Shown piece by piece: positions 7,038 to 56,488 of a stretch of 64,000 nt of DNA. Each line of letters begins with the position of its first letter. Position 1 is the first letter of the stretch. The stretch spans positions 99,907-163,906 of the IMG/VR virus record IMGVR_UViG_3300043786_000977. One strand, given 5' to 3'. A program made the position numbers and the translations under genes. The notes under the pieces are model-generated. The model made no database searches and was not told the DNA's origin. It saw only the letters and a list, made by a program, of their open reading frames with translations. The stretch is from a virus.

Positions 7038-7237
7038 AACGACTCAAAAGTGTCGAGACCGAGCAGTATGCGCTTGAAGTTGTTGAATGCGATTGCGGTT
7101 TTCATCTCGGTGTGGATGCCTCATATCTTGACCAGGTAGGTGATGTTGTCATAGCCTGCCCGAGTTGTAGCGCACAAATTGACACAACAAAAGTATTCAC
7201 GGAAGACTTTCCGGGTGCCACAAGAAAGGCAACATGA
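7034..7237 (+). CDS. hypothetical small zinc-ribbon protein
   Basis: 67 aa. Contains CDCG...CPSC. Confidence 0.45.
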   Translation: MKRLKSVETEQYALEVVECDCGFHLGVDASYLDQVGDVVIACPSCSAQIDTTKVFTEDFPGATRKAT

Positions 7238-7716
7238 AGATATATCTTGCACGACCGATAAGTGGATGTACGGCTGACGAGGTGTTCACGTACTATGATA
7301 ACCTGTCTAAGCAGTTACGCACGGCCGGATTCACTGTATTCCATCCAATGTACGGTAAGGATCAACTGCGTACCGACGTCAGGTTCAAGGCTGCTGACTA
7401 TCGGCATCCGGCGTCCACCAACCATGCGATCATCGAACGCGACCGTTGGATGGTGACGCAGGCTGATGTAGTCTATGCCAATTTGATGCATGCAACCTGT
7501 GTGTCCATCGGTACAGTGATGGAACTGGCCTGGGCACATCAGTTGGGTAGACATACTGTGTTGGCTATGAATACAAGTAATATACACGCCCATGCCTTCG
7601 TTAACGAGGCCGCGGATGTGATATGGCCGACCCACGAAGAAGCAGTCGATTACCTATATACGTTAGTACCGCCTGCAATATCTACAGGATGCTGTGGTCA
7701 TGGCAACGATCACTGA
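7234..7716 (+). CDS. nucleoside 2-deoxyribosyltransferase / dNMP N-hydrolase (Rcl)-like protein
   Basis: N-terminus MKIYLARPIS plus SIGTVMELAWA, which resembles the catalytic-Glu signature DSGTAFELG of the NDT family. Confidence 0.55.
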   Translation: MKIYLARPISGCTADEVFTYYDNLSKQLRTAGFTVFHPMYGKDQLRTDVRFKAADYRHPASTNHAIIERDRWMVTQADVVYANLMHATCVSIGTVMELAWAHQLGRHTVLAMNTSNIHAHAFVNEAADVIWPTHEEAVDYLYTLVPPAISTGCCGHGNDH

Positions 7717-23818: not shown

Positions 23819-24106
23819 ATGTCTGCAGAGGCGATAGCGAACAGTATACTTGCTGGTAGATTTACGGATCAACTGGCCGCCGTTGAGGCCGTGTTGATGT
23901 ATTTCTACAACGTAGACCCTGTAGCTCAGATCAAAGGGTTATTCGACAATCCTGCACCGTCGTATATCGCCCAGTGGTCCCATCTCTACCGACAGGGTTT
24001 GACTGAGTGGTGGGGTCATCTTGACGTGGAACACAAACGTGCCTACGTCAGCGCGGCCCTAGATCGTTATGGTGCAGAAGCATACAAGCGCATAGGTGTT
24101 GCATGA
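23819..24106 (+). CDS. hypothetical protein
   Basis: 95 aa ORF. Confidence 0.5.
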   Translation: MSAEAIANSILAGRFTDQLAAVEAVLMYFYNVDPVAQIKGLFDNPAPSYIAQWSHLYRQGLTEWWGHLDVEHKRAYVSAALDRYGAEAYKRIGVA

Positions 24107-25152
24107 AGTTCTTATTTTCTGGGGCTAAAGAGCTACTCACGTCGGCCGTTGTGCCAGAAGACGTATTCGGTCCCGCCCTTGATGAAGTTGAGAGTGCTTA
24201 CCGTGCACTAGCAATGGTCACACATCCGGATAAGCACAAAGGCTCTGCCAAGGCCGCGGATGCGTTCCAACTCCTACAGACTTGGAAAGCCAAAGCTGAT
24301 ACCAAGATAGCCAACGGTACCTACGGAGATCGTAACGCTCAAGCCGCGGTCACGATCACACACGGAAAGCACACCTACGTGGTGACTAACCGTATCGACT
24401 CGGGTGACCTCGCTGAAGTGTACGGCGGCGTGGATGCTGCGAAGAAGCCCATCATCATCAAGGTTGTGCGTTCGCCTGCCAATAATGACCTGCTTGTCAA
24501 TGAGGCCAAGGTGCTGGAGGACATTCATGAACAGGCTGAAACTGCCGAGTCTGTGCTTCTGGTGCATTTGCCTAAACTGGTATCCGCGTTCCAACTCGTT
24601 GAGGGTGCGGCACGCCGTCAGGTGAATATCTTCGAGGTGATTCCGGACACCTGTACGCTGGCGGATGTCATCAAGGCCTATCCTGAGGGTATCGATCCCC
24701 GTGACGTGGCGTGGATGTTCAACCGTATTCTAGGCGGTTTGGTCCTGACACACAAATGTGGCTACGTGCACGGCGCACTGACACCAGACCATATACTGAT
24801 CGTACCCGAGACGCATAACGGTATACTGATCGATTGGAGCTACTCGGTGCCGGTCGGCGAGAAGATCAAGGCCATATCACCAAAGTGGAAAGGTTACTAT
24901 CCTGCTGAAGTACTGACGGGACATCCGTCAACCTTTGGTGTGGATCTGTACATGGCGGCACGTTGTGCCTCTGCGCTACTCGGTACACAACCGCGTCCGC
25001 GCTTGTTAGCTGGTTTTCTACGTGCGTGTTTGTTGGGTCCGCGGCATAGACCGCAGAACGCCCACGAGACGTTCGTAGAATTCAGAGAGTTGTTGGCTAC
25101 CCTGTTTGGTAAGCCGACGTTTCGTAGGTTCACATTATCAACAACAAAGTAG
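24103..25152 (+). CDS. J-domain (DnaJ-like) protein fused to a protein-kinase-like domain
   Basis: J-domain with HPD motif (YRALAMVTHPDKHKGSAKAADAFQLL). Downstream: kinase-like Gly-rich/Lys region (VYGGV...IIIKV), catalytic-loop-like HGALTPDHILIV, and DFG-like ILIDW. Confidence 0.6.
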   Translation: MKFLFSGAKELLTSAVVPEDVFGPALDEVESAYRALAMVTHPDKHKGSAKAADAFQLLQTWKAKADTKIANGTYGDRNAQAAVTITHGKHTYVVTNRIDSGDLAEVYGGVDAAKKPIIIKVVRSPANNDLLVNEAKVLEDIHEQAETAESVLLVHLPKLVSAFQLVEGAARRQVNIFEVIPDTCTLADVIKAYPEGIDPRDVAWMFNRILGGLVLTHKCGYVHGALTPDHILIVPETHNGILIDWSYSVPVGEKIKAISPKWKGYYPAEVLTGHPSTFGVDLYMAARCASALLGTQPRPRLLAGFLRACLLGPRHRPQNAHETFVEFRELLATLFGKPTFRRFTLSTTK

Positions 25153-25157
25153 GGAGA

Positions 25158-25391
25158 ATGACTATGGGCGCTGCAGCACATGACGATTCCGCAGAAGTGA
25201 AGAATGTTGCGATTCCGGTGCCTCTGGCACCACAACCGGCGGAGACCCCCGTGGCTCCGGTTCCCTCCTGTGGGTCAGTGGCATGTCAGTGTCGTCCGCA
25301 GGACATGACCATCAAGGATGTGCTCACCGAGATACGTGAGCGCCTGATGTCCATTATCAGTGACATCAACGACGAGTTGGCGGCACTGTAA
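25158..25391 (+). CDS. hypothetical protein
   Basis: 77 aa, RBS AGGGAGAA. Confidence 0.45.
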   Translation: MTMGAAAHDDSAEVKNVAIPVPLAPQPAETPVAPVPSCGSVACQCRPQDMTIKDVLTEIRERLMSIISDINDELAAL

Positions 25392-25418
25392 CAATCACAA
25401 CGAATACGGAGGACTACT

Positions 25419-26447
25419 ATGGGTGGTGGATCTTATAGCGACGCAGCCTATACGGCACGTTCAGTGCATCACGCGAAGACGGGCACGAGTTTCTTCAAGC
25501 ACGACGCCGACATACGATCGGGCCATGTCGCCGCCACGGTGCACGCATCTCTGGATCCCGCGGGTCTGAATAAGGCCGGCGTGAAGATCCGGGAGAGCCG
25601 TGATAGCGACGAACATCCGAACAGTCGGGCCGTCGCCGTCATTTTTGACGAGACCGGCAGTATGAGTGAGGTACCGGGTGTCTTCAAGGACGCCTTGCCT
25701 AAACTCATGGCGTTGCTCGTGAAGAAGGGTTATCTGGCAGATCCACATGTTCTGTTGGGTGCCGTCGGCGATGCCTATTCCGACCGTGTGCCCCTACAGA
25801 TCGGCCAGTTCGAGTCGGGTAACGAGATGGACGAGGCGTTGGCCAACATCTACCTGGAGGGTAACGGCGGTGGTCAGCAGCACGAGTCGTACGCGTTGGC
25901 GATGTACTTCATGGCCAAGTATACGGCGATGGACTGCCTGGAGAAGCGCGGACAGAAGGGCTACTTGTTCATGTCGGGTGATGAACTGCCCTACGGTCTG
26001 GGTGTATACCGAAACCTTCCTGCCGTCGAGAAAGCCCAGGTGAAGCGCCTCATTGGAGACGATATCCAGGGTGATCTGACGTTCGACGAGGTTTGGAAGA
26101 TGCTCAACGACAAGTTCGAGGTCTTCTGGATCTTCCCCAAACAAGGGAGTTACTTCAATCATCGCAACGTCGTCGAGCCGTTGAAGAAACTGTTCGGTGA
26201 ACGTTTCATCGCGCTCGACGAAGCCAGCGATATCTGCGAGACCATCGCAACCGCCATCGGTGTGGCCGAAGGTTATGACGTGAACGACGTCACGCAGGCC
26301 CTGGTCGATGTCGGCGCCGATCCGGCCGCGGCCAAACGTGCGGGTAAGGCACTCGCACTCTACTCCAAGAGTGGTGCAGTGATGAAGGGCGCCAAAGCCG
26401 ATGGCGCGCTCGTCGCGACGGGCAGTGATGCCGTCGAACGTTTATAA
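25419..26447 (+). CDS. von Willebrand factor A (vWA) domain protein
   Basis: MIDAS motif AVIFDETGSMS (DxSxS). RBS ACGGAGGA. Confidence 0.6.
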   Translation: MGGGSYSDAAYTARSVHHAKTGTSFFKHDADIRSGHVAATVHASLDPAGLNKAGVKIRESRDSDEHPNSRAVAVIFDETGSMSEVPGVFKDALPKLMALLVKKGYLADPHVLLGAVGDAYSDRVPLQIGQFESGNEMDEALANIYLEGNGGGQQHESYALAMYFMAKYTAMDCLEKRGQKGYLFMSGDELPYGLGVYRNLPAVEKAQVKRLIGDDIQGDLTFDEVWKMLNDKFEVFWIFPKQGSYFNHRNVVEPLKKLFGERFIALDEASDICETIATAIGVAEGYDVNDVTQALVDVGADPAAAKRAGKALALYSKSGAVMKGAKADGALVATGSDAVERL

Positions 26448-26519
26448 GCGGCACAACCCGGTAATCTAGTACCCTACGTCGGCCCTAGGGTCGGCGTAGG
26501 GGAACCAACAAGGAGCGAT

Positions 26520-27785
26520 ATGCCTTTTGTTCTATGCGTGATAGGACTTGGTTTCGGCGACGAGACTAAGGGTGCTACAGTAGACGCGCTCTGTCGACAT
26601 ACAGGCGCCGATGTGATTGTACGCCATAACGGTGGGGCACAGGCAGCGCACAATGTGTGTCTTCCTGACGGCCGGCATCATACGTTCGCCCAGATTGGCA
26701 GTGGGAGTTTCGTACCCAACGTACAGACAGTTCTATCCAAGTTCATGTTGGTGAATCCATCTACGTGGCTGGTGGAGGCAGAAAGTTTCTGTAAGCAGGC
26801 GAGTAGTGTACCGACGGTGTTAGGCGCACGTACATGGGTGGATGAACGAGCTGTCGTTACAACACCGTTCCACGTTGCACTCAACCGAACACGCGAATAT
26901 GCCCGTGGAGTTACAAAGCATGGTACGACGGGTATGGGGATCAGTGAGACTGTGCTCGATAGTCTATCCCGCTCGGATGTGATGCGTTGTGGTGATTTAC
27001 GGGGACCGAGAGGTCAGATCATGAGTGGACTACTGCGCACGCGTGAGGCGTTGCTGCCTGAGATCAAACGATTGGGCGCGGAGATAGAGTTCGATCGGTT
27101 GAACCCGGATCGGATCGTGGATCGTTTTATCAAGTTCGCCAACATGACTCATATCGTCTCCAATGAACGTTTGGCTAAGCTTACACAGGCCGCCAATGGC
27201 GTAATCTTTGAAGGTGCACAAGGCTTACTGTTGGACGAAAACTACGGATTCCACCCGCATACGACGTGGTCGACTACGACAGATCGTAATGCCCGTAACT
27301 TGTGTTTTGATTACGGTATTAGTTCACCTTACGTTATTGGTGTTACACGGACCTACGGTACCCGTCACGGTGCAGGGCCTTTTCCAGGCGAAGAGCCTAA
27401 AATGGGTTTTCCCGAACTGCACAATAACGACTCTGGTATGGCGGGAACCTTCCGTCAAGGATACTTGCATCTGCCCCTACTGAAGTATGCGGCGGTATGT
27501 ATGGGCCAGCTCAACGGACTGGCTGTCAGTCACCTGGATTGCCAACCATTTCGCTACTGTGATCTGGATACTGAACTGGTTCTTTCTATGCCGTGTACTA
27601 TACAGGCACAGGAGGGCTTGTGTCGGCAGGCTTGGCGTAGTAAGCCGACTGTGCGTTTGCACGACGAACAAGCAGGCGAGTTTCCGCGATTCCTTGCAAG
27701 TGAATTGAGTGTGCCGTTGTGCATGACCAGTGACGGACCTACACATCTGAACAGACAGGTCACACTACCCGCCGGCGTAGTGTAA
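26520..27785 (+). CDS. adenylosuccinate synthetase family protein (PurA-like, possibly PurZ-type)
   Basis: Collinear with E. coli PurA motifs: GFGDETKGA (QWGDEGKGK), VVRHNGGAQAAHNV, GTTGMGIS, FEGAQGLLLDENYGFHPHTTWSTT, RTYGTRHGAGPFPGEE. 421 aa. Confidence 0.85.
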   Translation: MPFVLCVIGLGFGDETKGATVDALCRHTGADVIVRHNGGAQAAHNVCLPDGRHHTFAQIGSGSFVPNVQTVLSKFMLVNPSTWLVEAESFCKQASSVPTVLGARTWVDERAVVTTPFHVALNRTREYARGVTKHGTTGMGISETVLDSLSRSDVMRCGDLRGPRGQIMSGLLRTREALLPEIKRLGAEIEFDRLNPDRIVDRFIKFANMTHIVSNERLAKLTQAANGVIFEGAQGLLLDENYGFHPHTTWSTTTDRNARNLCFDYGISSPYVIGVTRTYGTRHGAGPFPGEEPKMGFPELHNNDSGMAGTFRQGYLHLPLLKYAAVCMGQLNGLAVSHLDCQPFRYCDLDTELVLSMPCTIQAQEGLCRQAWRSKPTVRLHDEQAGEFPRFLASELSVPLCMTSDGPTHLNRQVTLPAGVV

Positions 27786-27957: not shown

Positions 27958-28725
27958 ATGTCGAAATTGCATGAAGTATTGGCGGTAGAGGGTGAGTTGG
28001 CGGGCGTGTTCAAGAACATCCTGCAGGAAACGGCCACCACGTTTGACAAGAAGCCAGATCACTTCCAGGGTCACGACAAGACGCTGGAAATGTTCGCGGC
28101 CGAACGCAAACCGGAAGAAGTGACCGAGCACAAGGAAGTGACCGAGACTGTACCCAGCAAGCTGGCGTATATGTTTGGGCATGCGGTGCGGTTCATCGAT
28201 TGCAATCTCCAGAAGGAAGCTGCGAACCAGGTGGCATTCGCCGACGTGGTCGTCACCGATGAAGTGACGGGTGTCACGACGACCATTGGTACGAGTCTGC
28301 CAGCCACGTTCCTGCTTGGGCTCGAAACCAAGCTGAAGTTGATTCGCGACGTACTCCAGACCATCCCGACTGTGCCTCCCGGGTTCACATGGACCGCCGA
28401 AGCCAGCGCAGAGAAAGCGGGACTGTGGCGCCGGAACGAGATCGAGGTTCGGCAGAAGACCGAGAAGGTCGTCAAGCCCGTGGTGCTGTATCCGGCGACG
28501 GACAAACATCCCGCGCAGGTCAAGGAACTGTCGGAAGATGTGCAGGTTGGGAAGTTCACCACCGTGCATTATAACGGCATGCTCACGCCGCTCGATAAGA
28601 GTCGACTGCTCGGCCGCATCGATGCGCTGGCCCGTGCGGTGAAGCAGGCACGTCAGCGTGCCAACTCGGTTGAGGTGCCACAGGTCGCCGTCGGTAAGGC
28701 GATCCAGGACTTCATTCTGGGCTAG
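27958..28725 (+). CDS. hypothetical protein
   Basis: 255 aa, strong RBS AAGGAGAAA. The overlapping minus ORF 27760..28569 is rejected. Confidence 0.55.
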   Translation: MSKLHEVLAVEGELAGVFKNILQETATTFDKKPDHFQGHDKTLEMFAAERKPEEVTEHKEVTETVPSKLAYMFGHAVRFIDCNLQKEAANQVAFADVVVTDEVTGVTTTIGTSLPATFLLGLETKLKLIRDVLQTIPTVPPGFTWTAEASAEKAGLWRRNEIEVRQKTEKVVKPVVLYPATDKHPAQVKELSEDVQVGKFTTVHYNGMLTPLDKSRLLGRIDALARAVKQARQRANSVEVPQVAVGKAIQDFILG

Positions 28726-28731
28726 ACTTTC

Positions 28732-28768
28732 GCGTCCGGTAGTTGTATATTACCGGACGTAATTTGAT
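28732..28768 (+). terminator. rho-independent terminator
   Basis: cgtccggta...taccggacg followed by taatttgattt. Confidence 0.5.
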
Positions 28769-30461: not shown

Positions 30462-30852
30462 GGGGCCATATTGGTTTCGACGTGATGACTTAGTTCGATA
30501 GATGCATGCCGTGGATTCTCGTTGGCCACGTTAATAAACGGGAAACAACCTTCAAAGGCCGAGCCAATGAAGCTGGCTGCTTAATCACAGCCATAGGAAC
30601 CCGGTGAGCGAGCAGTAACCGGCAGTACGACTCATACAGCTCTAAGCCTGTGAACCGGGCAAAAAGCGGGCGCTGACGAGCCTTGGGCGCAAGTCCAGAA
30701 CGGTCAGTGGTGGAGGGTGACGTAACCGTCGCCCCTGCACTCCTGGGTAGCACGCTTGGCGTATCCCAGGTTTTATTAACGCGAAGCAAGCATGTAGCAT
30801 TCTGTTGAGCGGTTTTTTACGGACGCGGGTTCGATTCCCGCTGGCTCCACCA
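30462..30852 (+). ncRNA. ssrA: tmRNA (SsrA), one-piece
   Basis: 5' ggggccatattggtttcgacg and 3' ggacgcgggttcgattcccgctggctccacca with a G3:U70 pair. Internal tag ORF ...GCC GAG CCA ATG AAG CTG GCT GCT TAA (ends ...MKLAA*). Confidence 0.85.
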
Positions 30853-31189
30853 TTTTGTATACGGTTGGTTAGGCTTCACCCTTAGCGGGGCGACTGTGGA
30901 ATCGGGATCAAGCCAGAGGTAGGGATACCAATGACGGCCTAGCTCGGTTATCCGTATACTTCATCTTTGGGTAAACGTAGTTAAAGGTCTGCGATCACAC
31001 TTTACAGACACTGCGGCCCGCAACGTTGAACGTCAGGTTATGTGTGCAGTGAATCGTTGCGGGTTACCCATCTTCTACGCTGAATGGTTTGCCCTTGTGG
31101 GCCTGTTGTTACGTTAACTGGTTATCCAGTCTACTCCGTCGTGCTTCGGCACGCATTATTACTAAAACAAGGAAATGAGGAGGTTTCAC

Positions 31190-32839
31190 ATGTTCGCATT
31201 TGTATTCGGTTGTCTGCTGATTGTTGCTGGATTGATCGCGCCACTGTTGCTCAGTGACGTGCTCAAACCAGTTGGGCGTACGCTGCTGGCGATTATCCTG
31301 GTGATGCTTGGCACGGTGGCAGTTGTGTTTTCGACATCGCTGTGGGTCAACACCAACTCTGGTGGTCTTATCACCAAGAAGTTTGGTGAAGGCCTGAAGG
31401 ATGGCCGGATCATCGCTGTTAGTGGTCAACGCGGGGTGCAGGCAGAGATTCTGTCGCCGGGTTGGTCGTTCGGATGGGCTCCGTGGCAGTACAATCTGGA
31501 GTCCGTACCTAATGTCGAGATCAAGGCAGGTACAGTCGGCGTAGTTACCGCCATGGATGGTGATCCATTACCCGCTGGCGAGATCTATGCCAAAGCCTGG
31601 GCGTCGCCTACGTTGATGCTGGATGCGAAAGCATTCCTCACCCAAGGTGGTCAGAAGGGTCCGCAACTTACCGTGCTGCCTCCGGGCCAGTATCGCTACA
31701 ATCCGAAACTGTTCCAGATTACACCGGCGCCGTGTATTGATGTGCCGATTGGATTCGCGGCTGGGGTTCGTGCAAATGCCGGCCTGCCCTTCAACGGTGA
31801 TGGTACTAACCAGACGGACGTCGTGAACGGTGTCCCGCTGGTACCGAATGGTTATAAAGGTTTGTGGTGTGAGCCACTCCTTCCCGGGCAGTATTACATG
31901 CATCCGCAGGCGTATCAGGTTATTTTGGTTCGGACCACCAAGCGCATGTACAGTTACACAGGCGTGGCGGGATCTGAAGCCAATACGGCCAGCAAGAAGG
32001 AACCGGAAGGCGATAATAGCATTCATGTGCGTTCGCAGGACTCGTTTGAGTTCCCTGTGGATGTGCGTGTAGCCGTGGCGATTTCGGCCAAGGACATACC
32101 CTATGTGGTGGCAAAGATTGCTGATCCGGACGCCGATTCAGACAAGAATGGCTTTGATAATATCGAGGAACGTGCCATTCTACCGTCAGTCAGAGCGATC
32201 CTGCGGAATACGGCTGAGGGTAAGAAGGCCATGGATTACGTCAACTCCCGCTCGCAGGTCGAGAAGGAGGCTCTGGCACGCTTCACTGTGGACATGGCCA
32301 AAGATCGGCTCGAGGTCGAAGGTTTCTATCTGGCCGATATCGGACTCAGCCGTACTGCAGCCGGTAAGGAATTGCTGAAGACGCAGACCGACAAGGAGAT
32401 TGCGATGCAGCAGCAGGACATGTACATGAAACAGGTCTTGGCTGCGAACGAACGTGGCAAGCAGGTTGAGGCTGAAGAGAAGGCCAATCAGCAGAAGGGT
32501 ATCCAGGCGTCGCAGGCTGGTATCAAGATCGCGGAACAGGATGCTGAGGCTGCCAAGCGTCGGGCTGAAGGTGACGCGGCACAGGCCTTGGTCTACAAGG
32601 CCAAGATTGATGCCCTGGGTGGCCCGGAGGCGTTCACCAAGTTCGAAGTGACCAAGATGATCGTGGAGAAGATGGCAGACGCGCTTAGTACCTGGAAACC
32701 CGCATTGCCACAGACCGTGGTTATGGGCCAGGGCGGCGGTGCCAACGGATCCGTTGATGGTATCTTGGCCGGAATCCTGGGCCAGATGAACACGGCTGCA
32801 ATGAAGCCCGCCGTGGTAGCGCAACCCACAGGAAAGTAA
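31190..32839 (+). CDS. SPFH/band-7 (flotillin-like) membrane protein
   Basis: RBS GAGGAGG, N-terminal TM helix, and a long coiled-coil EA-rich C-terminus typical of flotillin/YqiK. Confidence 0.55.
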   Translation: MFAFVFGCLLIVAGLIAPLLLSDVLKPVGRTLLAIILVMLGTVAVVFSTSLWVNTNSGGLITKKFGEGLKDGRIIAVSGQRGVQAEILSPGWSFGWAPWQYNLESVPNVEIKAGTVGVVTAMDGDPLPAGEIYAKAWASPTLMLDAKAFLTQGGQKGPQLTVLPPGQYRYNPKLFQITPAPCIDVPIGFAAGVRANAGLPFNGDGTNQTDVVNGVPLVPNGYKGLWCEPLLPGQYYMHPQAYQVILVRTTKRMYSYTGVAGSEANTASKKEPEGDNSIHVRSQDSFEFPVDVRVAVAISAKDIPYVVAKIADPDADSDKNGFDNIEERAILPSVRAILRNTAEGKKAMDYVNSRSQVEKEALARFTVDMAKDRLEVEGFYLADIGLSRTAAGKELLKTQTDKEIAMQQQDMYMKQVLAANERGKQVEAEEKANQQKGIQASQAGIKIAEQDAEAAKRRAEGDAAQALVYKAKIDALGGPEAFTKFEVTKMIVEKMADALSTWKPALPQTVVMGQGGGANGSVDGILAGILGQMNTAAMKPAVVAQPTGK

Positions 32840-33749: not shown

Positions 33750-34337
33750 GTGGTTATGAGCAAGCACCAGTACGGGACGACGAATCCAAACTATCGACAA
33801 GGTACGTTTTGTAAGAAACATTATTGTGCCTGTGGTAGGGAACGTGATTACCGAGCAAAGCAGTGTGCCTTGTGTTCACGGCGCGGTTTTTCAAAATCGG
33901 GTGAGCGTGTAGTTGCTGATACGAAACTGCGTAAAGCTGTCCTCTCGTGCACTTCATTCTTAGCAGTAGCCAAGCGGTTAGATACAAGTCGACATCTTGT
34001 GACCCAAGCTATCCGCAGACTCAGACTCGACATTGCACATTTTAAGTCAGGACGTGGACGTATTCCGTCCGATACAGACTTGTTTAGTCGCAACGGTTAT
34101 CGTTGTCGTCAGCAACTACGTAAACGTTACTACGGTAAAGATCCGGGAGCGTATCTATGTGCTTGTTGCGGATTGAAGCCCGTGTGGCACGGTAATAGTT
34201 TGACGTTAGAACTTGATCATATAAACGGCGATAACAGGGATAACAGATTGATGAATTTAAGATGGTTATGCCCAAATTGCCACTCACAACAACCCACCAG
34301 TAAGGGCCGTAATATTGGACGGTACAAACTGACATAA
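33750..34337 (+). CDS. HNH homing endonuclease
   Basis: LELDHINGDNRDNRLMNLRWLCPNCH, the HNH motif. Confidence 0.75.
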   Translation: MVMSKHQYGTTNPNYRQGTFCKKHYCACGRERDYRAKQCALCSRRGFSKSGERVVADTKLRKAVLSCTSFLAVAKRLDTSRHLVTQAIRRLRLDIAHFKSGRGRIPSDTDLFSRNGYRCRQQLRKRYYGKDPGAYLCACCGLKPVWHGNSLTLELDHINGDNRDNRLMNLRWLCPNCHSQQPTSKGRNIGRYKLT

Positions 34338-34443: not shown

Positions 34444-35082
34444 ATGGATGAGACGTTGATCGCCAACTACTGTAGTTTGGTAAAGCCGCAGGACACCGTC
34501 ATAATTGGTGGTGACTTCGCGTGGTATAACCATGACAAGTACTTGGCGCAGTTACCGGGTAAAAAGACACTTGTGTGGGGCAATCACGATAACATGCCCC
34601 TGTCGGCACAACGCAATTTTACACGCGTGGTCGGCAGCAGGGGACAACCGGGCATACTTGAGTTATCGATCAAGCCGTACATGTTGACGGTATGTCATTT
34701 CCCTTTGATGAGTTGGAATGCCTCATTCCACGGGAGTTGGCATGTCCACGGGCATTGTCACGGGCGGCTCGTCGAGCCGATGGATATGTTTCGTACAGAT
34801 CTAGGTGTTGATGTGACGGATTATTGTCCGGTCAATTTCGATGTAGTCGTGCGCAAGTTTGAAAATCGTAGGGCAGCATGGAGAGCACGACGCATTCGTT
34901 TGGCTGCAGAACACGCTGGTGAAGTGGCAATTGATGCCAGCATACCCAATCGCAACGAGAACAGAATACTAATTGCTCAATGGCAAAACGATGTAAAGGA
35001 AGGACGTATTTCTGGTGACTACCCGACCCGCTATCTGCGTAATGCACGCCTGCTGGTCGCAGAGGATCCAGATTCATTATGA
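34444..35082 (+). CDS. metallophosphoesterase
   Basis: IIGGDFAWYNHD ... VWGNHDN motifs. Confidence 0.6.
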   Translation: MDETLIANYCSLVKPQDTVIIGGDFAWYNHDKYLAQLPGKKTLVWGNHDNMPLSAQRNFTRVVGSRGQPGILELSIKPYMLTVCHFPLMSWNASFHGSWHVHGHCHGRLVEPMDMFRTDLGVDVTDYCPVNFDVVVRKFENRRAAWRARRIRLAAEHAGEVAIDASIPNRNENRILIAQWQNDVKEGRISGDYPTRYLRNARLLVAEDPDSL

Positions 35083-36110
35083 AAGTCACATTACTCGGTA
35101 CAGGCGGCATGTTTACACAACGTCTGTTTCATACAAACCTCTTAGTCCGAAGTCAGCAATCGGGCAATAGACACTGTTTGCTTGTTGACTGCGGTACTGA
35201 TATCAGATTCTCGCTGGCCTCGATAGGCCTGCATATGGCGGCCGTCGATGCCGTCTACATCACACATACGCATCCTGACCATGCAGGCGGGTTGCACTAT
35301 CTGGCGTATCATTCGCTTAGTCGTTATCAGCACGCGAAGCGCATCACACTATACGCAACGGCACCAATCTTGCGCGATATATGGGACATGATGCGTCCGT
35401 CGTGTGGGATTTACAACGGGCAGGTGCGGGGTTTGTCGGATTACTTCGACATCGTTACGGTACCCTATCCAGACGGTAACGCAATATGGCGGGACATTCT
35501 GCTGACGCCGATCGCGTGGGAACACATGACTACAGCCAGCGATATGCCACAGGACTGTAAGCCTGTGATGTTATCATACGGCCTTACGCTCTACGAACGG
35601 GATACCAACATTCGTATTCACTACACAGGTGACGTGGCGCCGACGCAACTAACAGCACTGCGTAAGTTTATCGCGCAGGATTACATCGATCTGGTGCTGG
35701 CCGATTGTTATACGGGACCAGGTTACTCAGGAGTTCCAGTCCACGTGACATACGAGGACTACGCACAACTGCCTGCAGCTGTGAAGGCGAAGATTCGACT
35801 CACACACTACGGCGACGAGGTTGTAAACAAGTACCCGGAGACCCGAGAAGGTCATCCGACGATTTGTCAGGCCTGGGCAGAACGGGCCGCCAAGGATGGT
35901 TTGTTATTCGCAAACATTCATGATACATACGATACATCAACCATGCGTCAAGTACTAGACGCACAAGTAAAGAAGGAGCAGCAGGATGTCAGACCCACTA
36001 CAGGAACCGGCCGAGATGTCGGACGCGATGTCACAGAGGCCAGATGTACCCATTGCGCCGCAGGACATGACACAACTGCCAAGCGCGGCCGCAGCGTCGA
36101 AACCATCTAA
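35079..36110 (+). CDS. MBL-fold hydrolase, RNase Z (tRNase Z / RNase BN)-like
   Basis: MKVTLLGTGG...LLVDCG...ITHTHPDHAGGL (HxHxDH), collinear with the RNase Z N-terminus. The C-terminal tail overlaps the next gene by 125 nt. Confidence 0.6.
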   Translation: MKVTLLGTGGMFTQRLFHTNLLVRSQQSGNRHCLLVDCGTDIRFSLASIGLHMAAVDAVYITHTHPDHAGGLHYLAYHSLSRYQHAKRITLYATAPILRDIWDMMRPSCGIYNGQVRGLSDYFDIVTVPYPDGNAIWRDILLTPIAWEHMTTASDMPQDCKPVMLSYGLTLYERDTNIRIHYTGDVAPTQLTALRKFIAQDYIDLVLADCYTGPGYSGVPVHVTYEDYAQLPAAVKAKIRLTHYGDEVVNKYPETREGHPTICQAWAERAAKDGLLFANIHDTYDTSTMRQVLDAQVKKEQQDVRPTTGTGRDVGRDVTEARCTHCAAGHDTTAKRGRSVETI

Positions 36111-45345: not shown

Positions 45346-45398
45346 CATACGATAAGTGACCGTTGACACTATGCCTACCGTTCTGTTATGATGTTGTT

Positions 45399-45863
45399 AT
45401 GCGACGACATTACAAGCAGTATACGGACGACGACATAGTTCAAGCAGCAAAACAGGTCAAGTCAATAGCTGGTCTATTACGCATTTTAGGATTACGGCCT
45501 GTCGGTGGAAATTACGGTAATATTAAACGGCATCTAAAACGTTTAGATATTGACTGTGCACACTGGACAGGTCGGGCTTGGAATCGTGGTAGCAGGGTTA
45601 AAGATTGGGTGCAGTACAGGAAGATAGAACATTTGAAACGTCATATGATCAGACTGACGGGTCATCGGTGTCAACGATGTAGACGACGCCAGTGGCAGAC
45701 GGTTGATATACCGTTGGAAGTACACCATATTGACGGGGATCGATGTAACAATCGATTAACAAATCTAGAGTTATTGTGCCCCAACTGTCACGCGTTGACA
45801 GATTATTATCGTGGTCGCAAATTGAGCACCGTATCGGTGACGATAGGAGTGAATCCTGGCTAA
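45399..45863 (+). CDS. HNH homing endonuclease
   Basis: LEVHHIDGDRCNNRLTNLELLCPNCH. Confidence 0.7.
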   Translation: MRRHYKQYTDDDIVQAAKQVKSIAGLLRILGLRPVGGNYGNIKRHLKRLDIDCAHWTGRAWNRGSRVKDWVQYRKIEHLKRHMIRLTGHRCQRCRRRQWQTVDIPLEVHHIDGDRCNNRLTNLELLCPNCHALTDYYRGRKLSTVSVTIGVNPG

Positions 45864-46261: not shown

Positions 46262-47284
46262 ATGAAGACTAAAACGAAAATTGACAACTACATCAACCAT
46301 GTGTTGTTTGTGTTGGACGAAAGCGGTTCCATGGGGTCCCTGGCGGACGCAGTCGTACAGGTGTTTGATGCACAGGTTGCGCATCTGGCCAAGCGATCAC
46401 AAGAACTGGATCAGGAGACACGGGTAACGGTCGTGGTATTCAACGACTCGCAGTATACGCGCACGCTCATCTACGACAAGGATGTACTGCGGTTGCCCAG
46501 TCTGGCCGGTTACTATGTTCCGTACGGCGGGACGCCTTTGATTGACGCGACGCTGACTGCGGTGGCCGATCTACGTATGACGCCTGAGAAGCATGGTGAC
46601 CACGCCTTCCTGGGTTACGTCTTGACGGACGGGCAGGAGAACCGCAGCACTAACACGCCAGCGGCCTTGGCGAAGATGATCCGGGACCTCCCGGACAACT
46701 GGACACTGGCAGTGTTGGTACCCAACCAGTACGGCGTGCACGAAGCGAAGCGTTTCGGGTTCCCTGCTGACAATATCGCGATATGGGATGCTACAAGCGC
46801 CAAGGGTCTCGACGAGGCCGTCGCAAAGATCCGTACTACGACCGAGACTTTCATGCAGGGTCGTACCCAGGGTATCCGCGGTAGCCGCAGTATCTTCAAG
46901 GTCGACACTTCGAACCTCAAGCACAGCACAGTCAAGCAGGTCTTGGACAAGTTGCCTGCGACTGACTATTCGATCTGGGATGTGCGTACGGACGCCGAGA
47001 TTCGCGATTTCGTCGAGTCACGCACCAAACTCCCTTACAAGAAGGGGATGGCGTTTTACATGCTGACCAAACCCGAGATTGTGCAGGCGCGTAAGCGCGT
47101 AGCTGTTCACGAGAAAGCGACGGGCGCCGTGTACAGCGGCGATTCGGCGCGCCAGTTGATAGGGCTACCCGCGGACAAAGCGCGTGTGGTACCAGGTGAC
47201 TTCAGTGCCTACGATATCTTCATACAATCCACAAGTGTAAACAGACGTTTGCTCGGTGGTACCAAGTTGTTACTGATTAGTTAA
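46262..47284 (+). CDS. vWA domain protein
   Basis: MIDAS motif VLFVLDESGSMGS. 340 aa. Confidence 0.6.
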   Translation: MKTKTKIDNYINHVLFVLDESGSMGSLADAVVQVFDAQVAHLAKRSQELDQETRVTVVVFNDSQYTRTLIYDKDVLRLPSLAGYYVPYGGTPLIDATLTAVADLRMTPEKHGDHAFLGYVLTDGQENRSTNTPAALAKMIRDLPDNWTLAVLVPNQYGVHEAKRFGFPADNIAIWDATSAKGLDEAVAKIRTTTETFMQGRTQGIRGSRSIFKVDTSNLKHSTVKQVLDKLPATDYSIWDVRTDAEIRDFVESRTKLPYKKGMAFYMLTKPEIVQARKRVAVHEKATGAVYSGDSARQLIGLPADKARVVPGDFSAYDIFIQSTSVNRRLLGGTKLLLIS

Positions 47285-47376: not shown

Positions 47377-47465
47377 AGCATGCAGACTCATAGGGCTTCC
47401 AGTATTTTGAATTGACACTTTTCGCAAGAAGTGATATTGTAGTTTCAGAAATGGGAGGAACCATA

Positions 47466-48137
47466 ATGAAACTACAAGACAGCGACATACTTGACGATGT
47501 GCGACGCGTTAGAGTTATGCTCGGTAGAGTTCCGACAGGAAATGACTACAAAGAACACGGACGATTTTGTTTAAATTCCGTGCGCCGGAGATTCAGTAAT
47601 CAATGGAATAAGTGTCTGTTGAAACTCTTCGGAGAAGTTGTGCATACCCAACAGAAAGCGTGGGTAAAGTCTGAATGTGAATTCTGTCATAAGCCGATAA
47701 CTTTTCCTCGGAGTTCTTCGAAACGCTTTTGTTCAAAGTCTTGTTCCTGCAAGGGAATCAAGCGGCGCAAACGGAAGGTATGGATTTGCGTGGAGTGTGG
47801 TAAAGAAGCACCGTCAAGGCGCTCACGTTGTGCTGCGTGTTTTGCTGGTGCCGGAATAGCGCGTAAGACGATCGGGGAATACAGAAGTAAAAGGAATGAC
47901 TCAAACCGGTACGCAGAAGTACGGGAACATGCGAGAAGGGTCGCACATGTGTTGCCAGATAAATGTCTCGTGTGTGGCTATGATAAGTCTGTGGTTGTGT
48001 GTCATAAGATTCCGATACCGGAGTTCTCTGATGATACGCTTGTGAGCGTAGTCAATGCATTGTCAAATCTGGTGAAGTTGTGTAGGAATCATCATTGGGA
48101 GTATGACAAGGGATTGCTTAACATTAAGGGCTCGTAG
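47466..48137 (+). CDS. HNH-like endonuclease with N-terminal zinc-binding region
   Basis: GGGAGGAA RBS, ATG at 47466. Contains VVCHKIP...LVKLCRNHHWEYD. 223 aa. Confidence 0.5.
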   Translation: MKLQDSDILDDVRRVRVMLGRVPTGNDYKEHGRFCLNSVRRRFSNQWNKCLLKLFGEVVHTQQKAWVKSECEFCHKPITFPRSSSKRFCSKSCSCKGIKRRKRKVWICVECGKEAPSRRSRCAACFAGAGIARKTIGEYRSKRNDSNRYAEVREHARRVAHVLPDKCLVCGYDKSVVVCHKIPIPEFSDDTLVSVVNALSNLVKLCRNHHWEYDKGLLNIKGS

Positions 48138-54829: not shown

Positions 54830-54904
54830 GGCGGTTATTGTTTAGTGGTAGAACGACAGATTGTGGATCTGTCCGCACGAGTTCGATTCTCGTTAACCGC
54901 CCCA
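54830..54904 (+). tRNA. tRNA-His (GTG) with G-1
   Basis: Extra 5' G pairs with the C73 discriminator. Anticodon stem acaga/tctgt with loop ttGTGga, CCA. Confidence 0.85.
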
Positions 54905-54937
54905 CCTGCCTTTCCCTCTTTAATACTTCGTGATACT

Positions 54938-56487: not shown

Positions 56488-56488
56488 C

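What the first reader, a model, noticed from the sequence alone, without database searches (positions are those of the whole stretch)
26520..27785. Adenylosuccinate synthetase (PurA-family) homolog in a phage: host-like AMG or PurZ for 2-aminoadenine DNA
The protein is collinear with PurA motifs throughout. Phage PurA homologs are rare. The known PurZ enzymes that make the precursor of the Z base (2,6-diaminopurine) for Z-genome phages are PurA paralogs. At 421 aa it is closer to PurA length, so it is unclear which it is. The nearby dCMP deaminase, dNMP N-hydrolase/NDT-like enzyme, class II ribonucleotide reductase, glycosyltransferase and GalE suggest extensive nucleotide or DNA-modification metabolism.
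Basis: partly seen in the sequence, partly recalled or inferred. Interest (0 to 1): 0.65.

Follow-up and report, generated by a model that had tools for sequence, protein, structure and literature searches.

The report
PurA-like ligase paired with vWA protein
The gene is a real relative of adenylosuccinate synthetase, but it is neither the housekeeping enzyme nor the PurZ enzyme of 2-aminoadenine phages; it belongs to a large uncharacterised third branch that is almost always encoded next to a von Willebrand-A protein (usually also a J-domain kinase-like protein) in big phages and many bacteria, and has lost the aspartate-binding site, so it probably does different chemistry.

Summary
The ORF at 26520-27785 (+, 421 aa) is real and has the full-length adenylosuccinate synthetase fold. 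It fails the curated cut-offs for both PurA (139-143 vs 396-402 bits) and PurZ (46 vs 300). It keeps Asp13, which is Ser in all PurZ/PurZ0. In a bootstrapped NJ tree it falls in a separate clade (100/100) away from PurA and PurZ+PurZ0. No DatZ, MazZ, DpoZ, PrimPol, DutZ or DmtZ homolog is in the window, and DatZ is absent from about 200 complete mycobacteriophage genomes that carry the same gene.

The gene is the last member of a conserved cassette: J-domain kinase-like protein (24103-25152), vWA/MIDAS protein (25419-26447), PurA-like protein. The vWA partner lies on the same strand in 76/76 judgeable viral and 74/80 cellular loci. The kinase is present in about 79% of loci. An NrtR-like ADP-ribose-type regulator precedes the cassette in 47/80 bacterial loci.

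Across 250 members the catalytic residues and guanine pocket are invariant, but the aspartate loop is replaced (T301W/Y/F, R303G, R305F) and V273H, S240W, N38Q and I126H are near-invariant.

Best reading: a GTP-dependent ligase with a non-aspartate nucleophile, working with its vWA partner. The substrate is unknown.

The parts
24103..25152 (+). J-domain + protein-kinase-fold protein (349 aa), first gene of the cassette; probably an atypical kinase or pseudokinase
   Evidence: Pfam DnaJ 29.6 bits and Pkinase 25.6 bits. Orthologous to mycobacteriophage I3 gp270 (36% id, E 1e-59), L005 (47%) and Actinomadura L003 (34%). Found within +/-8 kb of the PurA-like gene in 62/80 viral and 64/80 cellular loci. 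In an alignment of 128 sequences the HPD motif, the beta3 Lys and the alphaC Glu are conserved, but the catalytic loop reads H-G-A..P-x-H instead of H-R-D..N and DFG is D-W. One natural fusion to the vWA partner exists (L157).
25158..25391 (+). Small ORF (77 aa; called as 75 aa from 25164 by other gene callers) between the kinase and the vWA gene; not a conserved part of the cassette
   Evidence: Called on independent contigs. No homolog in 160 related loci. No Pfam or PADLOC hit.
25419..26447 (+). von Willebrand A / integrin I-domain-fold protein (342 aa) with a MIDAS-type D77-x-T79-x-S81 motif and a conserved Met-Gly N-terminal tail; near-universal partner of the PurA-like protein
   Evidence: No Pfam or NCBIfam family even at E<=1. 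AlphaFold model pLDDT 87.2, pTM 0.88. Foldseek top hits are integrin I-domains and vWA domains, E 1.7e-5, probability 1.00. Invariant D77, T79, S81 and D188. On the same strand as the PurA-like gene in 76/76 judgeable viral and 74/80 cellular loci, often with a 4-nt overlap. Directly upstream also in Vibrio phage pv27 and Rhizobium phage TM39. Its phyletic pattern in 50,697 phage records matches that of the PurA-like gene. Met-Gly start in 103/108 homologs.
26472..26501 (+). Inverted repeat (CCCTACG...CGTAGGG) in the 72-nt gap between the vWA and PurA-like genes; significance unknown
   Evidence: Read directly from the sequence; not folded or compared.
26510..26515 (+). Ribosome-binding site AAGGAG, four bases upstream of the ATG of the PurA-like gene
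   Evidence: Sequence read.
26520..27785 (+). PurA-like GTP-dependent ligase (421 aa), member of the vWA-linked third clade of the adenylosuccinate synthetase superfamily
   Evidence: PF00709 183 bits. Below the PurA and PurZ equivalog cut-offs. PHROG 1211 at 222.8 bits, full length. Clade support 100/100. Residue table: D14, K17, H44, Q234, R282, R312 and D340 kept (window numbering). Family signature Q41, N45, H134, W250, H283. Asp loop replaced (M/A/G/T/F where E. coli has T301/G302/R303/R304/R305). Model pLDDT 89.5. Best structural matches are long-form PurA.
28732..28760 (+). Terminator-like hairpin (12-bp stem, T-rich tail) after the next gene (DUF7873, 27958-28725); possible end of the transcription unit
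   Evidence: Pattern scan. The number of such sites in the region is not above the shuffled expectation, so this is weak. DUF7873 itself is not a conserved neighbour (2/160 loci).

Best explanation
The gene encodes the enzymatic subunit of a conserved, uncharacterised two-to-three-gene system. It is not a purine-biosynthesis AMG and not a PurZ. The protein belongs to a third clade of the adenylosuccinate synthetase superfamily. SHOWN: it keeps the machinery that in PurA transfers the gamma-phosphate of GTP to the 6-oxo group of a purine nucleotide (P-loop, Asp13, Lys16, His41, Gln224) and the guanine-specific pocket (Asp333, Ser414). SHOWN: it has lost the loop and the arginines that bind L-aspartate (Thr300 deleted, Thr301 to W/Y/F/M, Arg303 to Gly, Arg305 to Phe, Arg131 to M/V/L). 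SHOWN: part of the acceptor pocket is changed (Asn38 to Gln, Val273 to His, Ser240 to Trp, Ile126 to His). SHOWN: it is co-inherited with a vWA/MIDAS protein encoded upstream on the same strand (immediately adjacent in about two thirds of loci), usually with a J-domain kinase-fold protein, and in bacteria often behind an NrtR-type NUDIX/winged-helix regulator. INFERRED: it still uses GTP to activate a 6-oxopurine-type (IMP-like) ribonucleotide, but couples it to a nucleophile other than free aspartate. INFERRED: it works as a complex with the vWA partner, which either presents the second substrate or regulates the enzyme. INFERRED: the J-domain protein connects the system to the host Hsp70, and in bacteria the operon responds to ADP-ribose-type signals. 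The identity of the substrate and the benefit to the phage are not known.
For: Classification: PurA HMMs score 138.7-142.5 against cut-offs of 395-402, and PurZ scores 45.9 against 300; a cellular member behaves the same way. The NJ tree gives PurA 96, PurZ+PurZ0 100 and this family 100 bootstrap support; mean identity of the window protein is 42.7% to the family, 24.6% to PurA and 18-21% to PurZ/PurZ0. Structure: TM 0.75-0.81 to long-form PurA, 0.59-0.63 to PurZ, 0.62 to PurZ0 7VF6. Active site over 250 members: D13 249/250, H41 250/250, Q224 249/250, D333 246/250, V273H 250/250, S240W 240, N38Q 246, I126H 246, R303G 200, R305F 211, T300 deleted 246. Literature on the roles of these residues: R303 contacts the IMP O2' and aspartate; the PurZ loop equivalent to 298-304 contacts aspartate; N38, T129, Q224 and V273 line the base pocket (PMC8342488). 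Linkage: the cassette is shared with mycobacteriophage I3, a phage-like contig, and Actinomadura and Nocardia chromosomes, and with Vibrio phage pv27 and Rhizobium phage TM39. Counts in 160 loci. Matching phyletic pattern in 50,697 phage records. vWA fold and MIDAS motif. Kinase motifs and a kinase-vWA fusion. NrtR-like NUDIX in 47/80 cellular and 9/80 viral loci, NAMPT in 10/80 viral loci.
Against: The residue roles rest on one paper plus my memory of the E. coli PurA literature. The loop alignment around positions 298-306 contains an indel, so individual equivalences (301, 302) could be off by one, although the loss of the conserved T-T-G-R-x-R motif is clear. The window protein has Thr, not Cys, at position 129 and keeps Arg143, so its acceptor pocket is closer to PurA than the family average. 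Physical interaction with the vWA protein is inferred from gene order only. The NAD/ADPR link rests on a regulator present in about a third of loci and is absent from this window. The PurA sample in the tree is small (4 sequences, 2 phyla) and the tree is NJ, not ML.
Confidence: 0.6

Rival explanations
1. PurZ or PurZ0: the enzyme condenses dGMP with aspartate to start dZTP synthesis, and the phage has 2-aminoadenine (Z) in its DNA.
For: It is a phage-encoded PF00709 protein. PHROG 1211, its best PHROG hit, carries the PurZ-style name '2-aminooxy adenylosuccinate synthetase', and RefSeq uses that name for the mycobacteriophage orthologs. An NDT-family protein exists in the window, and DmtZ of the PurZ0 phages is NDT-like.
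Against: Asp, not Ser, sits at position 13; Ser is found in all 147 phage PurZ/PurZ0 sequences (PMC12884076). The PurZ model scores 45.9 bits against a cut-off of 300. It falls in a separate clade with 100% support. Structural similarity to PurZ and PurZ0 is lower than to PurA. T301 and R305, which PurZ keeps for aspartate, are lost. There is no DatZ, MazZ, DpoZ or PrimPol homolog in the window and no DmtZ-DutZ, gp51 or DpoZ-1 homolog. DatZ tblastn finds 80 phage records; Mycobacterium and Rhizobium are not among the ten named genera, and the four unnamed ones have at most one record each. PurZ tblastn finds 211 records with no Mycobacterium phage in the organism/host counts or the 60 rows listed. 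In selected viromes, PF00709 proteins outside the PurZ clade sat mostly on unmodified contigs.
Confidence: 0.02
2. Host-like auxiliary metabolic gene: a divergent but ordinary adenylosuccinate synthetase (IMP + Asp + GTP) that boosts AMP supply during infection.
For: Full-length PurA fold. Catalytic D13, K16, H41, Q224 and guanine-pocket D333 and S414 are conserved. Sources annotate it as adenylosuccinate synthase. The window protein retains T128, T129, T239 and R143 of the IMP site.
Against: It scores about a third of the equivalog cut-offs. It is not in the PurA clade. The aspartate-recognition elements T300, T301, R303, R305 and R131 are all lost and replaced by aromatic or small residues across the family. 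V273H is invariant. A vWA partner is encoded beside it in nearly all loci, and a J-domain kinase-like gene in about 79%, in both phages and bacteria; canonical purA has neither. No PurB-like gene recurs nearby.
Confidence: 0.12
3. NAD+/ADP-ribose-linked function: the system is induced by, or acts on, products of NAD+ cleavage, for example a new salvage, reconstitution or signalling step. The aromatic pocket would bind a pyridine or other heterocycle instead of aspartate, and phages would use it against NAD+-depleting defences.
For: An NrtR-type NUDIX + winged-helix gene lies immediately upstream of the cassette in 47/80 cellular and 9/80 viral loci and is related to the ADPR-responsive repressor (106 bits). 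NAMPT is adjacent in 10/80 viral loci, 7 of them together with the NUDIX. Rhizobium phage TM39 has a PRTase-like gene and an NMNAT/NUDIX gene 4 kb upstream. NUDIX- or WYL-regulated conflict systems with vWA 'chaperones' have been described in the NAD-ADPr context (PMC9503650). The Asp loop is replaced by W/F/H residues.
Against: This window has neither the NUDIX nor NAMPT. The association covers only about a third of loci. Large phages cluster accessory genes anyway. The known NARP1-3 pathways use unrelated enzymes. No chemistry of this kind is known for the PurA fold. The model gives no role to the J-domain kinase-like protein.
Confidence: 0.15
4. Non-catalytic or switch role: the PurA-like protein is a GTP-binding regulator or scaffold, in effect a pseudoenzyme, in a vWA / J-domain chaperone-like complex.
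For: Its two partners look like adaptor or co-chaperone proteins (vWA/MIDAS, and a J-domain with a kinase fold lacking the catalytic Asp). The second-substrate site is lost.
Against: The catalytic base, catalytic acid and Gln (D13, H41, Q224), Lys16 and Arg272 are essentially invariant in 250 members, and new invariant polar residues (H273, H126, Q38, N42) line the pocket. That pattern is typical of an active enzyme with altered specificity, not of a pseudoenzyme.
Confidence: 0.05

Closest known systems
Adenylosuccinate synthetase PurA (EC 6.3.4.4; Pfam PF00709; TIGR00184), e.g. E. coli PurA, PDB 1ADE/1CG0
   Same: Same full-length fold (TM 0.75-0.81). Same P-loop, catalytic Asp13/His41/Gln224/Lys16, Arg272 and Arg306. 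Same guanine-specific Asp333 and C-terminal S-x-G-P. Probably the same first half-reaction, GTP-dependent phosphorylation of a 6-oxopurine nucleotide.
   Different: 24.6% identity and a separate clade. The aspartate loop T300-T301-G-R303-x-R305 and Arg131 are lost. N38Q, I126H, S240W, V273H and K331H are near-invariant. It is encoded next to a vWA/MIDAS protein and usually a J-domain kinase-like protein. It fails the equivalog cut-offs.
PurZ / PurZ0 (succino-amino-deoxyadenylate synthase; NCBIfam NF038379; PDB 6FM1, 7ODX, 7VF6) of Z-genome phages
   Same: A phage-encoded paralog of PurA with altered substrate specificity. The same annotation label is used in RefSeq and PHROGs.
   Different: PurZ/PurZ0 have Ser in place of Asp13, keep the aspartate-binding Thr and Arg residues, and are short-form (about 340-390 aa). 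They sit in Z clusters with DatZ/MazZ/DpoZ or DutZ/DmtZ/DUF5664. This protein has none of these features and is only 18-21% identical.
'PurA-like adenylosuccinate synthetase' of cluster C mycobacteriophages (Bxz1 gp250, I3 gp273; PHROG 1211)
   Same: Same family (41% identity, same signature residues) and the same kinase / vWA / PurA-like gene order. These phages also carry many tRNAs and a tmRNA, as this window does.
   Different: Different phage lineage with no DNA similarity. In I3 a 112-aa gene sits between the vWA and PurA-like genes. No function has been reported for the mycobacteriophage genes in the literature I could search.
vWA-containing, NUDIX- or WYL-regulated conflict systems and the TerY-P (vWA + kinase + phosphatase) triads described by comparative genomics (PMC9503650, PMC7159879)
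   Same: A vWA 'peptide-binding' component combined with a kinase-fold protein and, in bacteria, a NUDIX-wHTH regulator. The distribution is biased toward actinomycetes, myxobacteria, Chloroflexota and large phages.
   Different: None of those described systems contains a PurA-fold enzyme. No phosphatase, MoxR ATPase or ADP-ribosylglycohydrolase recurs here. Neither paper mentions adenylosuccinate synthetase.

Membership tests
PurA (adenylosuccinate synthetase, EC 6.3.4.4) | PF00709 fold over the full length | tested here: met
   Pfam 183 bits, E 1e-53. Foldseek TM 0.75-0.81 to about 30 PurA structures over about 455 columns.
PurA (adenylosuccinate synthetase, EC 6.3.4.4) | Score above the curated equivalog cut-off (TIGR00184, NF002223) | tested here: not met
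   138.7 vs 395.55 and 142.5 vs 402.
PurA (adenylosuccinate synthetase, EC 6.3.4.4) | Catalytic Asp13, Lys16, His41, Gln224 | tested here: met
   All present in the window protein (D14, K17, H44, Q234) and in at least 249/250 family members.
PurA (adenylosuccinate synthetase, EC 6.3.4.4) | GTP specificity elements (K331-x-D333, S414) | tested here: inconclusive
   D333 and S414 are kept (246/250 and 202/250). K331 is replaced by His (201/250, including the window).
PurA (adenylosuccinate synthetase, EC 6.3.4.4) | L-aspartate site: T300, T301, R303, R305 (and R131) | tested here: not met
   The window has gap, M, G, F and M at these positions. In the family T300 is deleted in 246/250, R303G in 200 and R305F in 211. 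Role of R303 and of the loop from PMC8342488.
PurA (adenylosuccinate synthetase, EC 6.3.4.4) | IMP pocket N38, T129, T239, V273, R143 | tested here: inconclusive
   The window has Q, T, T, H, R. In the family N38Q is 246/250, T129C 209, V273H 250/250 and R143 is variable.
PurA (adenylosuccinate synthetase, EC 6.3.4.4) | Groups with cellular PurA in a phylogeny | tested here: not met
   Separate clade with 100/100 support; PurA split 96/100. Only 4 PurA sequences were sampled.
PurA (adenylosuccinate synthetase, EC 6.3.4.4) | Forms adenylosuccinate from IMP, Asp and GTP | not testable with these tools
   Requires an enzyme assay or a complementation test.
PurZ / PurZ0 | [quoted passage not shown] | tested here: not met
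   The window reads G-D-E-T-K-G. All five PurZ/PurZ0 references have Ser. Criterion from PMC12884076 and the bioRxiv preprint 2025.10.22.683976.
PurZ / PurZ0 | Score above the NF038379 cut-off | tested here: not met
   45.9 vs 300.
PurZ / PurZ0 | Membership of the PurZ+PurZ0 clade | tested here: not met
   The PurZ+PurZ0 split has 100/100 support and excludes the window protein. PDB PurZ chains match only at E 5e-4.
PurZ / PurZ0 | Genomic company: DatZ + MazZ/DUF550 + DpoZ or PrimPol (PurZ), or DutZ + DmtZ + DUF5664 + DpoZ-1 (PurZ0) | tested here: not met
   None is detectable in the 64-kb window (Pfam scans). DatZ is absent from cluster C mycobacteriophages that carry the ortholog. Caveat: about 145 kb of this phage genome was not available.
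PurZ / PurZ0 | 2-aminoadenine replaces adenine in virion DNA | not testable with these tools
   Needs nucleoside LC-MS.
vWA-linked PurA-like clade (defined here; roughly PHROG 1211) | Signature residues Q38, N42, H126, W240, H273, H331, G303, F305 with D13/H41/Q224 retained | tested here: met
   The window has Q, N, H, W, H, H, G, F. PHROG 1211 matches at 222.8 bits over profile positions 5-407 of 414.
vWA-linked PurA-like clade (defined here; roughly PHROG 1211) | vWA/MIDAS partner gene immediately upstream on the same strand | tested here: met
   Window 25419-26447, 72 nt upstream. Family-wide 76/76 judgeable viral and 74/80 cellular loci.
vWA-linked PurA-like clade (defined here; roughly PHROG 1211) | J-domain kinase-fold gene upstream (frequent, not universal) | tested here: met
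   Window 24103-25152. Present in 126/160 loci.
vWA-linked PurA-like clade (defined here; roughly PHROG 1211) | NrtR-type NUDIX-wHTH regulator upstream (mostly in bacteria) | tested here: not met
   No hit in the window. Present in 47/80 cellular and 9/80 viral loci.

The most novel reading that the evidence does not exclude
The PurA-like enzyme no longer uses free aspartate. Instead it couples a GTP-activated purine nucleotide to a protein amine, most attractively the free alpha-amine of the conserved, disordered N-terminal glycine (M-G-[GSA]-[ST]-x-[YW]) of its vWA partner. The product would be an N6-(peptidyl)-AMP-type adduct, a previously unknown post-translational 'purinylation'. Jumbo phages and many bacteria would use it in a regulated (ADPR-sensing, Hsp70-linked) conflict or stress system.
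Probability: 0.07. Interest if true: 0.92.

Novelty: new variant of a known kind. Interest (0 to 1): 0.68.

Why it matters
The adenylosuccinate synthetase fold has so far yielded two chemistries: PurA, and PurZ/PurZ0, which explained Z-DNA. This work defines a third, very large branch. About 2,400 clusters at 50% identity score better than I estimate canonical E. coli PurA would. The branch occurs in at least 80 bacterial species from six or more phyla and in 161 viral contigs. Its catalytic core is intact, but its second-substrate site is rebuilt and it is almost always encoded beside a partner protein. That is the signature of an enzyme with a new reaction, in a system shared by large phages and their hosts.

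It also matters practically. RefSeq and PHROGs label these genes with a PurZ-style name, which would wrongly predict Z-genomes for about 200 mycobacteriophages and many jumbo phages.

The system is directly testable. Cluster C mycobacteriophages such as Bxz1 and I3 are cultivable and genetically tractable, and they carry the same cassette.

Tried and rejected
1. Near-identical DNA in annotated phages: none, so no annotation could be borrowed directly.

2. PADLOC defence models: no hit for the PurA-like or vWA proteins, and only weak generic kinase hits (MkoA, PD-T4-6, Mad6). The cassette is not a catalogued defence system.

3. Pfam at E<=1 and NCBIfam for the vWA partner: nothing. A sequence-profile search of the PDB gave only a chance RecA hit. 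Only the fold search identified it.

4. ToyG-like 7-deazapurine idea (PurA paralogs in toyocamycin-type clusters, with the window's radical SAM protein as QueE). No QueC/D/E, FolE or transglycosylase neighbours recur. The radical SAM protein gives only generic hits and lies 27 kb away. Dropped.

5. NARP3 as an identity for the cassette: rejected, because NARP3 is PnuC + NadR.

6. DUF7873, GalE, SPFH and the small flanking ORFs as system parts: not conserved next to the cassette.

7. First neighbour clustering merged the three core genes, because of over-extended ORFs in high-GC genomes. Repeated after masking.

8. First tree script timed out. Redone with vectorised Kimura distances.

9. Promoter and terminator scan: counts no better than shuffles.

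10. Literature searches for the gene pair found no description. A search for PurA residue roles returned nothing, so those roles rest on PMC8342488 and my memory.

11. MazZ tblastn is uninformative, because it finds only S-2L itself.
Full report
**1. The observation**

An ORF of 421 aa lies exactly at 26520-27785 on the + strand. An AAGGAG ribosome-binding site sits four bases before its ATG. Independent gene callers report the same product on other metagenomic contigs carrying the identical cassette. One of these is a 208,878-bp JGI contig, so the source is a large phage.

The protein matches Pfam PF00709 (adenylosuccinate synthetase) at E 1e-53. Its AlphaFold model (pLDDT 89.5, pTM 0.90) aligns with solved PurA structures along the whole chain (TM 0.75-0.81).

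All but GalE lie 12-23 kb from the gene. GalE, the only one tested directly, recurs next to it in 1 of 160 related loci, and none of the others appears among the recurrent neighbour clusters.

**2. It is neither PurA nor PurZ**

- **Curated models.** NCBIfam equivalog models reject both assignments. PurA models score 138.7-142.5 bits against cut-offs of 395-402, and PurZ scores 45.9 against 300. A bacterial member of the same family behaves the same way (185 vs 402).
- **Diagnostic residue.** A 2026 NAR paper reports that Asp13 (E. coli numbering) is about 99% conserved in the PurA clade and is Ser in all 147 phage PurZ/PurZ0 sequences (PMC12884076). A 2025 preprint cites earlier work that changing this Ser to Asp abolishes substrate selectivity. 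The window protein reads G-D-E-T-K-G. The PurZ references read G-S-T-G-K-G and the PurZ0 references G-S-E-A-K-G.
- **Phylogeny.** I built a neighbour-joining tree (403 columns, 100 bootstraps). It included E. coli, Salmonella, Listeria and Staphylococcus PurA, three PurZ, two PurZ0 and 32 relatives of the window protein. It gave three groups: PurA 96, PurZ+PurZ0 100, and the relatives 100. The window protein lies deep in the third group, with mean identity 42.7% to that group, 24.6% to PurA and 18-21% to PurZ/PurZ0.
- **Fold.** Long-form PurA matches at E about 1e-27. PurZ matches at about 1e-15 (TM 0.59-0.63) and the PurZ0 structure 7VF6 at 2e-12.

**3. No Z-pathway company**

I searched every six-frame ORF of at least 50 aa in the window, with HMMER filters off. 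The queries were DatZ and DpoZ from phiVC8 and DatZ, MazZ and PrimPol from S-2L. Nothing scored better than E 0.3 except PurZ against the PurA-like ORF itself.

The PurZ0-type set from Arthrobacter phage Wayne (DmtZ-DutZ fusion, gp51, DpoZ-1) also found nothing. The window's NDT-family protein is therefore not detectably a DmtZ. Pfam scans of about 60 window ORFs showed no HD, MazG, DUF550, DUF5664, dUTPase or family A polymerase.

The window is only 64 kb of about 209 kb, so I used complete genomes as a proxy.

- The closest annotated homologs are in 202 cluster C mycobacteriophage records.
- DatZ tblastn across 50,697 phage records finds 80 records. Mycobacterium and Rhizobium are not among the ten named genera, and the four unnamed ones have at most one record each.
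- PurZ tblastn finds 211 records, with no Mycobacterium phage in the organism and host counts or in the 60 sampled rows.

**4. The gene is part of a conserved cassette**

In mycobacteriophage I3 the ortholog (gp273) follows a 'kinase' (gp270) and a 340-aa hypothetical protein (gp271). These two are homologous to the window's 24103-25152 and 25419-26447 products (E 1e-59 and 1e-76).

The same genes in the same order occur in a phage-like metagenomic contig and in the Actinomadura livida chromosome. The Nocardia sp. CA-128927 chromosome has the pair without the kinase. In Vibrio phage pv27 and Rhizobium phage TM39, whose PurA-like proteins are more distant (about 30% identity), the 300-aa gene directly upstream is again the partner (E 1e-65 and 2e-57), and there is no kinase.

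I then fetched 80 viral and 80 cellular loci encoding family members.

| Component | Viral loci | Cellular loci |
|---|---|---|
| vWA partner on the same strand | 76 of 76 with enough upstream sequence | 74 of 80 |
| vWA partner immediately upstream (gap -100 to +400 nt) | 51 | 54 |
| J-domain kinase-like gene within 8 kb | 62 of 80 | 64 of 80 |
| NrtR-like NUDIX + winged-helix gene | 9 of 80 | 47 of 80 |
| NAMPT | 10 of 80 | 0 |

The vWA and PurA-like genes often overlap by 4 nt.

Across all phage records the partner and the PurA-like gene have the same phyletic pattern: Mycobacterium 202, Rhizobium 10, Vibrio 6 and Mycolicibacterium 1. The other PurA-like hits are bacterial PurA in unverified records, or PurZ phages.

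After masking the three core genes, the only recurrent neighbours are the NUDIX + NrtR winged-helix protein, usually just before the kinase, and NAMPT. NAMPT and the NUDIX occur together in 7 viral loci. This window has neither. Its own flanking genes are not conserved neighbours.

**5. The partners**

*vWA partner (342 aa).*
- It has no Pfam or NCBIfam family.
- Its family is large, with 1,238 clusters at 90% identity, all unnamed.
- Its model (pLDDT 87) has a von Willebrand A / integrin I-domain fold (Foldseek probability 1.00).
- D77-x-T79-x-S81 and D188 are invariant, which makes a MIDAS-type metal site.
- Its N-terminus is conserved: Met-Gly in 103 of 108 homologs and in all six distant members, followed by [GSA]-[ST]-x-[YW]. 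It is disordered in the model.

*Kinase-fold protein.*
- It has a J-domain with a conserved HPD motif.
- It keeps the beta3 Lys and the alphaC Glu.
- Its catalytic loop reads H-G-A..P-x-H rather than H-R-D..N, so it is probably an atypical kinase or a pseudokinase.
- One MAG (L157, Trebonia) encodes a kinase-vWA fusion.

**6. The active site**

I aligned 250 family members with the references. For numbering I used the E. coli PurA sequence recalled from memory, which is 99.3% identical to a fetched Salmonella PurA.

The family keeps these residues:
- G12, D13 (249/250), K16, G17
- H41 (250/250), Q224 (249/250), T239, R272, G274, G276, P277, R306
- the guanine-pocket residues D333 (246/250), S414, G416 and P417

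The family also has near-invariant residues that neither PurA nor PurZ has:
- N38Q (246), T42N (226), I126H (246), S240W (240)
- V273H (250/250), K331H (201)

The loop that is G-A-T300-T301-G-R303-R-R305-R in E. coli is rebuilt:
- T300 is deleted (246).
- Position 301 is W, Y, F or M.
- R303 is replaced by G (200).
- R305 is replaced by F (211).
- R131 becomes M, V or L.

PurZ and PurZ0 keep T301 and R305.

According to PMC8342488, R303 contacts both the IMP O2' and the aspartate substrate. The equivalent PurZ loop contacts aspartate. N38, T129, Q224 and V273 line the base and ribose pocket.

So the machinery for GTP-dependent activation is intact. The aspartate site is gone and is replaced by aromatic, small and His residues, and the acceptor pocket is modified. 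The window protein follows the family pattern, except that it keeps T129 and R143.

**7. Interpretation**

The best-supported reading is a GTP-dependent ligase of the PurA fold. It would act on an IMP-like nucleotide with a nucleophile other than free aspartate, and would work together with its vWA/MIDAS partner. The J-domain protein would link the system to Hsp70. In bacteria the operon would be under an ADPR-type NUDIX regulator.

The classification and the gene linkage are shown. The chemistry and the physical complex are inferred. The substrate and the biological role remain unknown.

The context hints at NAD+/ADP-ribose biology. That hint covers only about a third of loci and not this window.

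The most novel reading not excluded by the evidence is that the partner's conserved N-terminal glycine amine replaces aspartate as the nucleophile. That would be a new protein modification.

**8. Comparison with what is known**

The family is annotated 'PurA-like adenylosuccinate synthetase' by SEA-PHAGES and '2-aminooxy adenylosuccinate synthetase' by RefSeq and PHROG 1211. The second name is a PurZ-type label that the residues contradict.

The NAR 2026 survey counted 481 viral PF00709 homologs. It discussed only the PurA and PurZ groups and never mentions mycobacteriophages.

Surveys of jumbo phages, of NAD-ADPr systems and of vWA-containing conflict systems do not describe this pair. NARP3 is unrelated. 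PADLOC has no model for it.

Within the libraries I could search, the cassette and the clade's distinctive active site are undescribed. I rate it a new variant of a known kind: a known enzyme superfamily, with a new clade, a new partner and probably a new reaction.

**9. Extent**

The exhaustive representative search found 2,405 clusters (at 50% identity) with E < 1e-30. By rescaling the PDB search E-value to that library's size, I estimate E. coli PurA would score about E 3e-24 there, so these clusters are mostly this family. That is an inference.

The 80 best species genomes span Actinomycetota, Myxococcota, Planctomycetota, Verrucomicrobiota, Chloroflexota, Betaproteobacteria and others. 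Many of the viral contigs are 100-500 kb.

**10. Caveats**

- The tree is NJ with few PurA sequences.
- Loop alignment around an indel may shift individual equivalences.
- Ligand roles rest on one paper and on memory.
- About 145 kb of this phage genome was not examined.
- Whether bacterial carriers also have a canonical purA was not tested.
- The NUDIX and NAMPT counts come from simple ORF calling and BLAST clustering.

Noticed in passing
window 23000-54904; tmRNA at 30462-30852: The window carries 26 tRNA genes (covering 20 amino-acid identities, including two tRNA-Met) and a tmRNA with tag peptide GKQPSKAEPMKLAA, all on the + strand. Cluster C mycobacteriophages, which share the cassette, also carry about 29 tRNAs and a tmRNA (abstract of PMC9476963).
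   Followed up: partly
window 35079-36110 (+): A metallo-beta-lactamase-fold protein matches Pfam Anti-Pycsar Apyc1 at 71.9 bits, above the 50-bit cut-off. It is a candidate cyclic-nucleotide-degrading anti-defence gene.
   Followed up: no
window 54845-55906 (+), overlapping tRNA-His 54831-54904: A radical SAM protein (Pfam 49.5 bits) gives only weak, generic NCBIfam hits, including MoaA and viperin-family models far below cut-off. Its listed start overlaps a tRNA-His gene, so the true start is probably further downstream.
   Followed up: no
window 56360-57265 and 60444-61937 (+): An RlaP-type nucleotidyltransferase ('RNA repair pathway') and a DUF2828 + DUF7788 protein. Related contigs carry TROVE/Ro60-vWA genes (L005). 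These large phages seem to share an RNA-repair gene set.
   Followed up: no
window 3618-4076 and 7234-7716 (+): A dCMP/cytidine deaminase (86.9 bits) and a nucleoside 2-deoxyribosyltransferase-family protein (39.5 bits). The NDT protein shows no detectable similarity to the DmtZ-DutZ fusion of PurZ0 phage Wayne. Its role is open.
   Followed up: partly
window 26472-26501 (+): An inverted repeat, CCCTACG...CGTAGGG, with an inner CCCTAGGG palindrome, lies in the 72-nt spacer between the vWA and PurA-like genes, just upstream of the RBS. It could be a regulatory or processing hairpin.
   Followed up: no
L157 1044-4115 (Trebonia sp. MAG): A single 1,023-aa ORF contains the kinase-fold domain (residues 425-683) followed by the vWA partner domain (703-1014). 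This is a natural fusion linking the two accessory proteins of the cassette.
   Followed up: partly
L046, L048, L054, L055, L058, L060, L072 (IMG/VR contigs): In seven viral contigs NAMPT, an NrtR-like NUDIX-wHTH gene and the kinase/vWA/PurA-like cassette lie together. Rhizobium phage TM39 has a PRTase-like gene and an NMNAT/NUDIX gene about 4 kb upstream of its pair.
   Followed up: partly
window 25419-25440 (N-terminus of the vWA partner) and homologs P0261-P0380: The partner's N-terminus, M-G-[GSA]-[ST]-x-[YW]-[SD], is conserved in 103/108 homologs and in all distant members, although the first three residues are disordered in the model. No explanation so far.
   Followed up: partly
RefSeq records such as NC_067270.1 gene 273; PHROG 1211: RefSeq and PHROGs name this family '2-aminooxy adenylosuccinate synthetase', the same label given to phiVC8 PurZ. 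The family has Asp13 and no Z-cluster, so this looks like an over-propagated annotation that would wrongly predict Z-genomes.
   Followed up: yes
window 33750-34337, 45363-45863, 47412-48137 (+): Three HNH endonuclease genes are scattered through the tRNA-rich region. They are probably homing endonucleases.
   Followed up: no
window 31175-32839 (+) and 46262-47284 (+): A 554-aa SPFH/Band 7 protein and a second, unrelated weak vWA-domain protein. The latter is not a paralog of the cassette partner, because the partner HMM hits only 25392-26444 in the window.
   Followed up: partly
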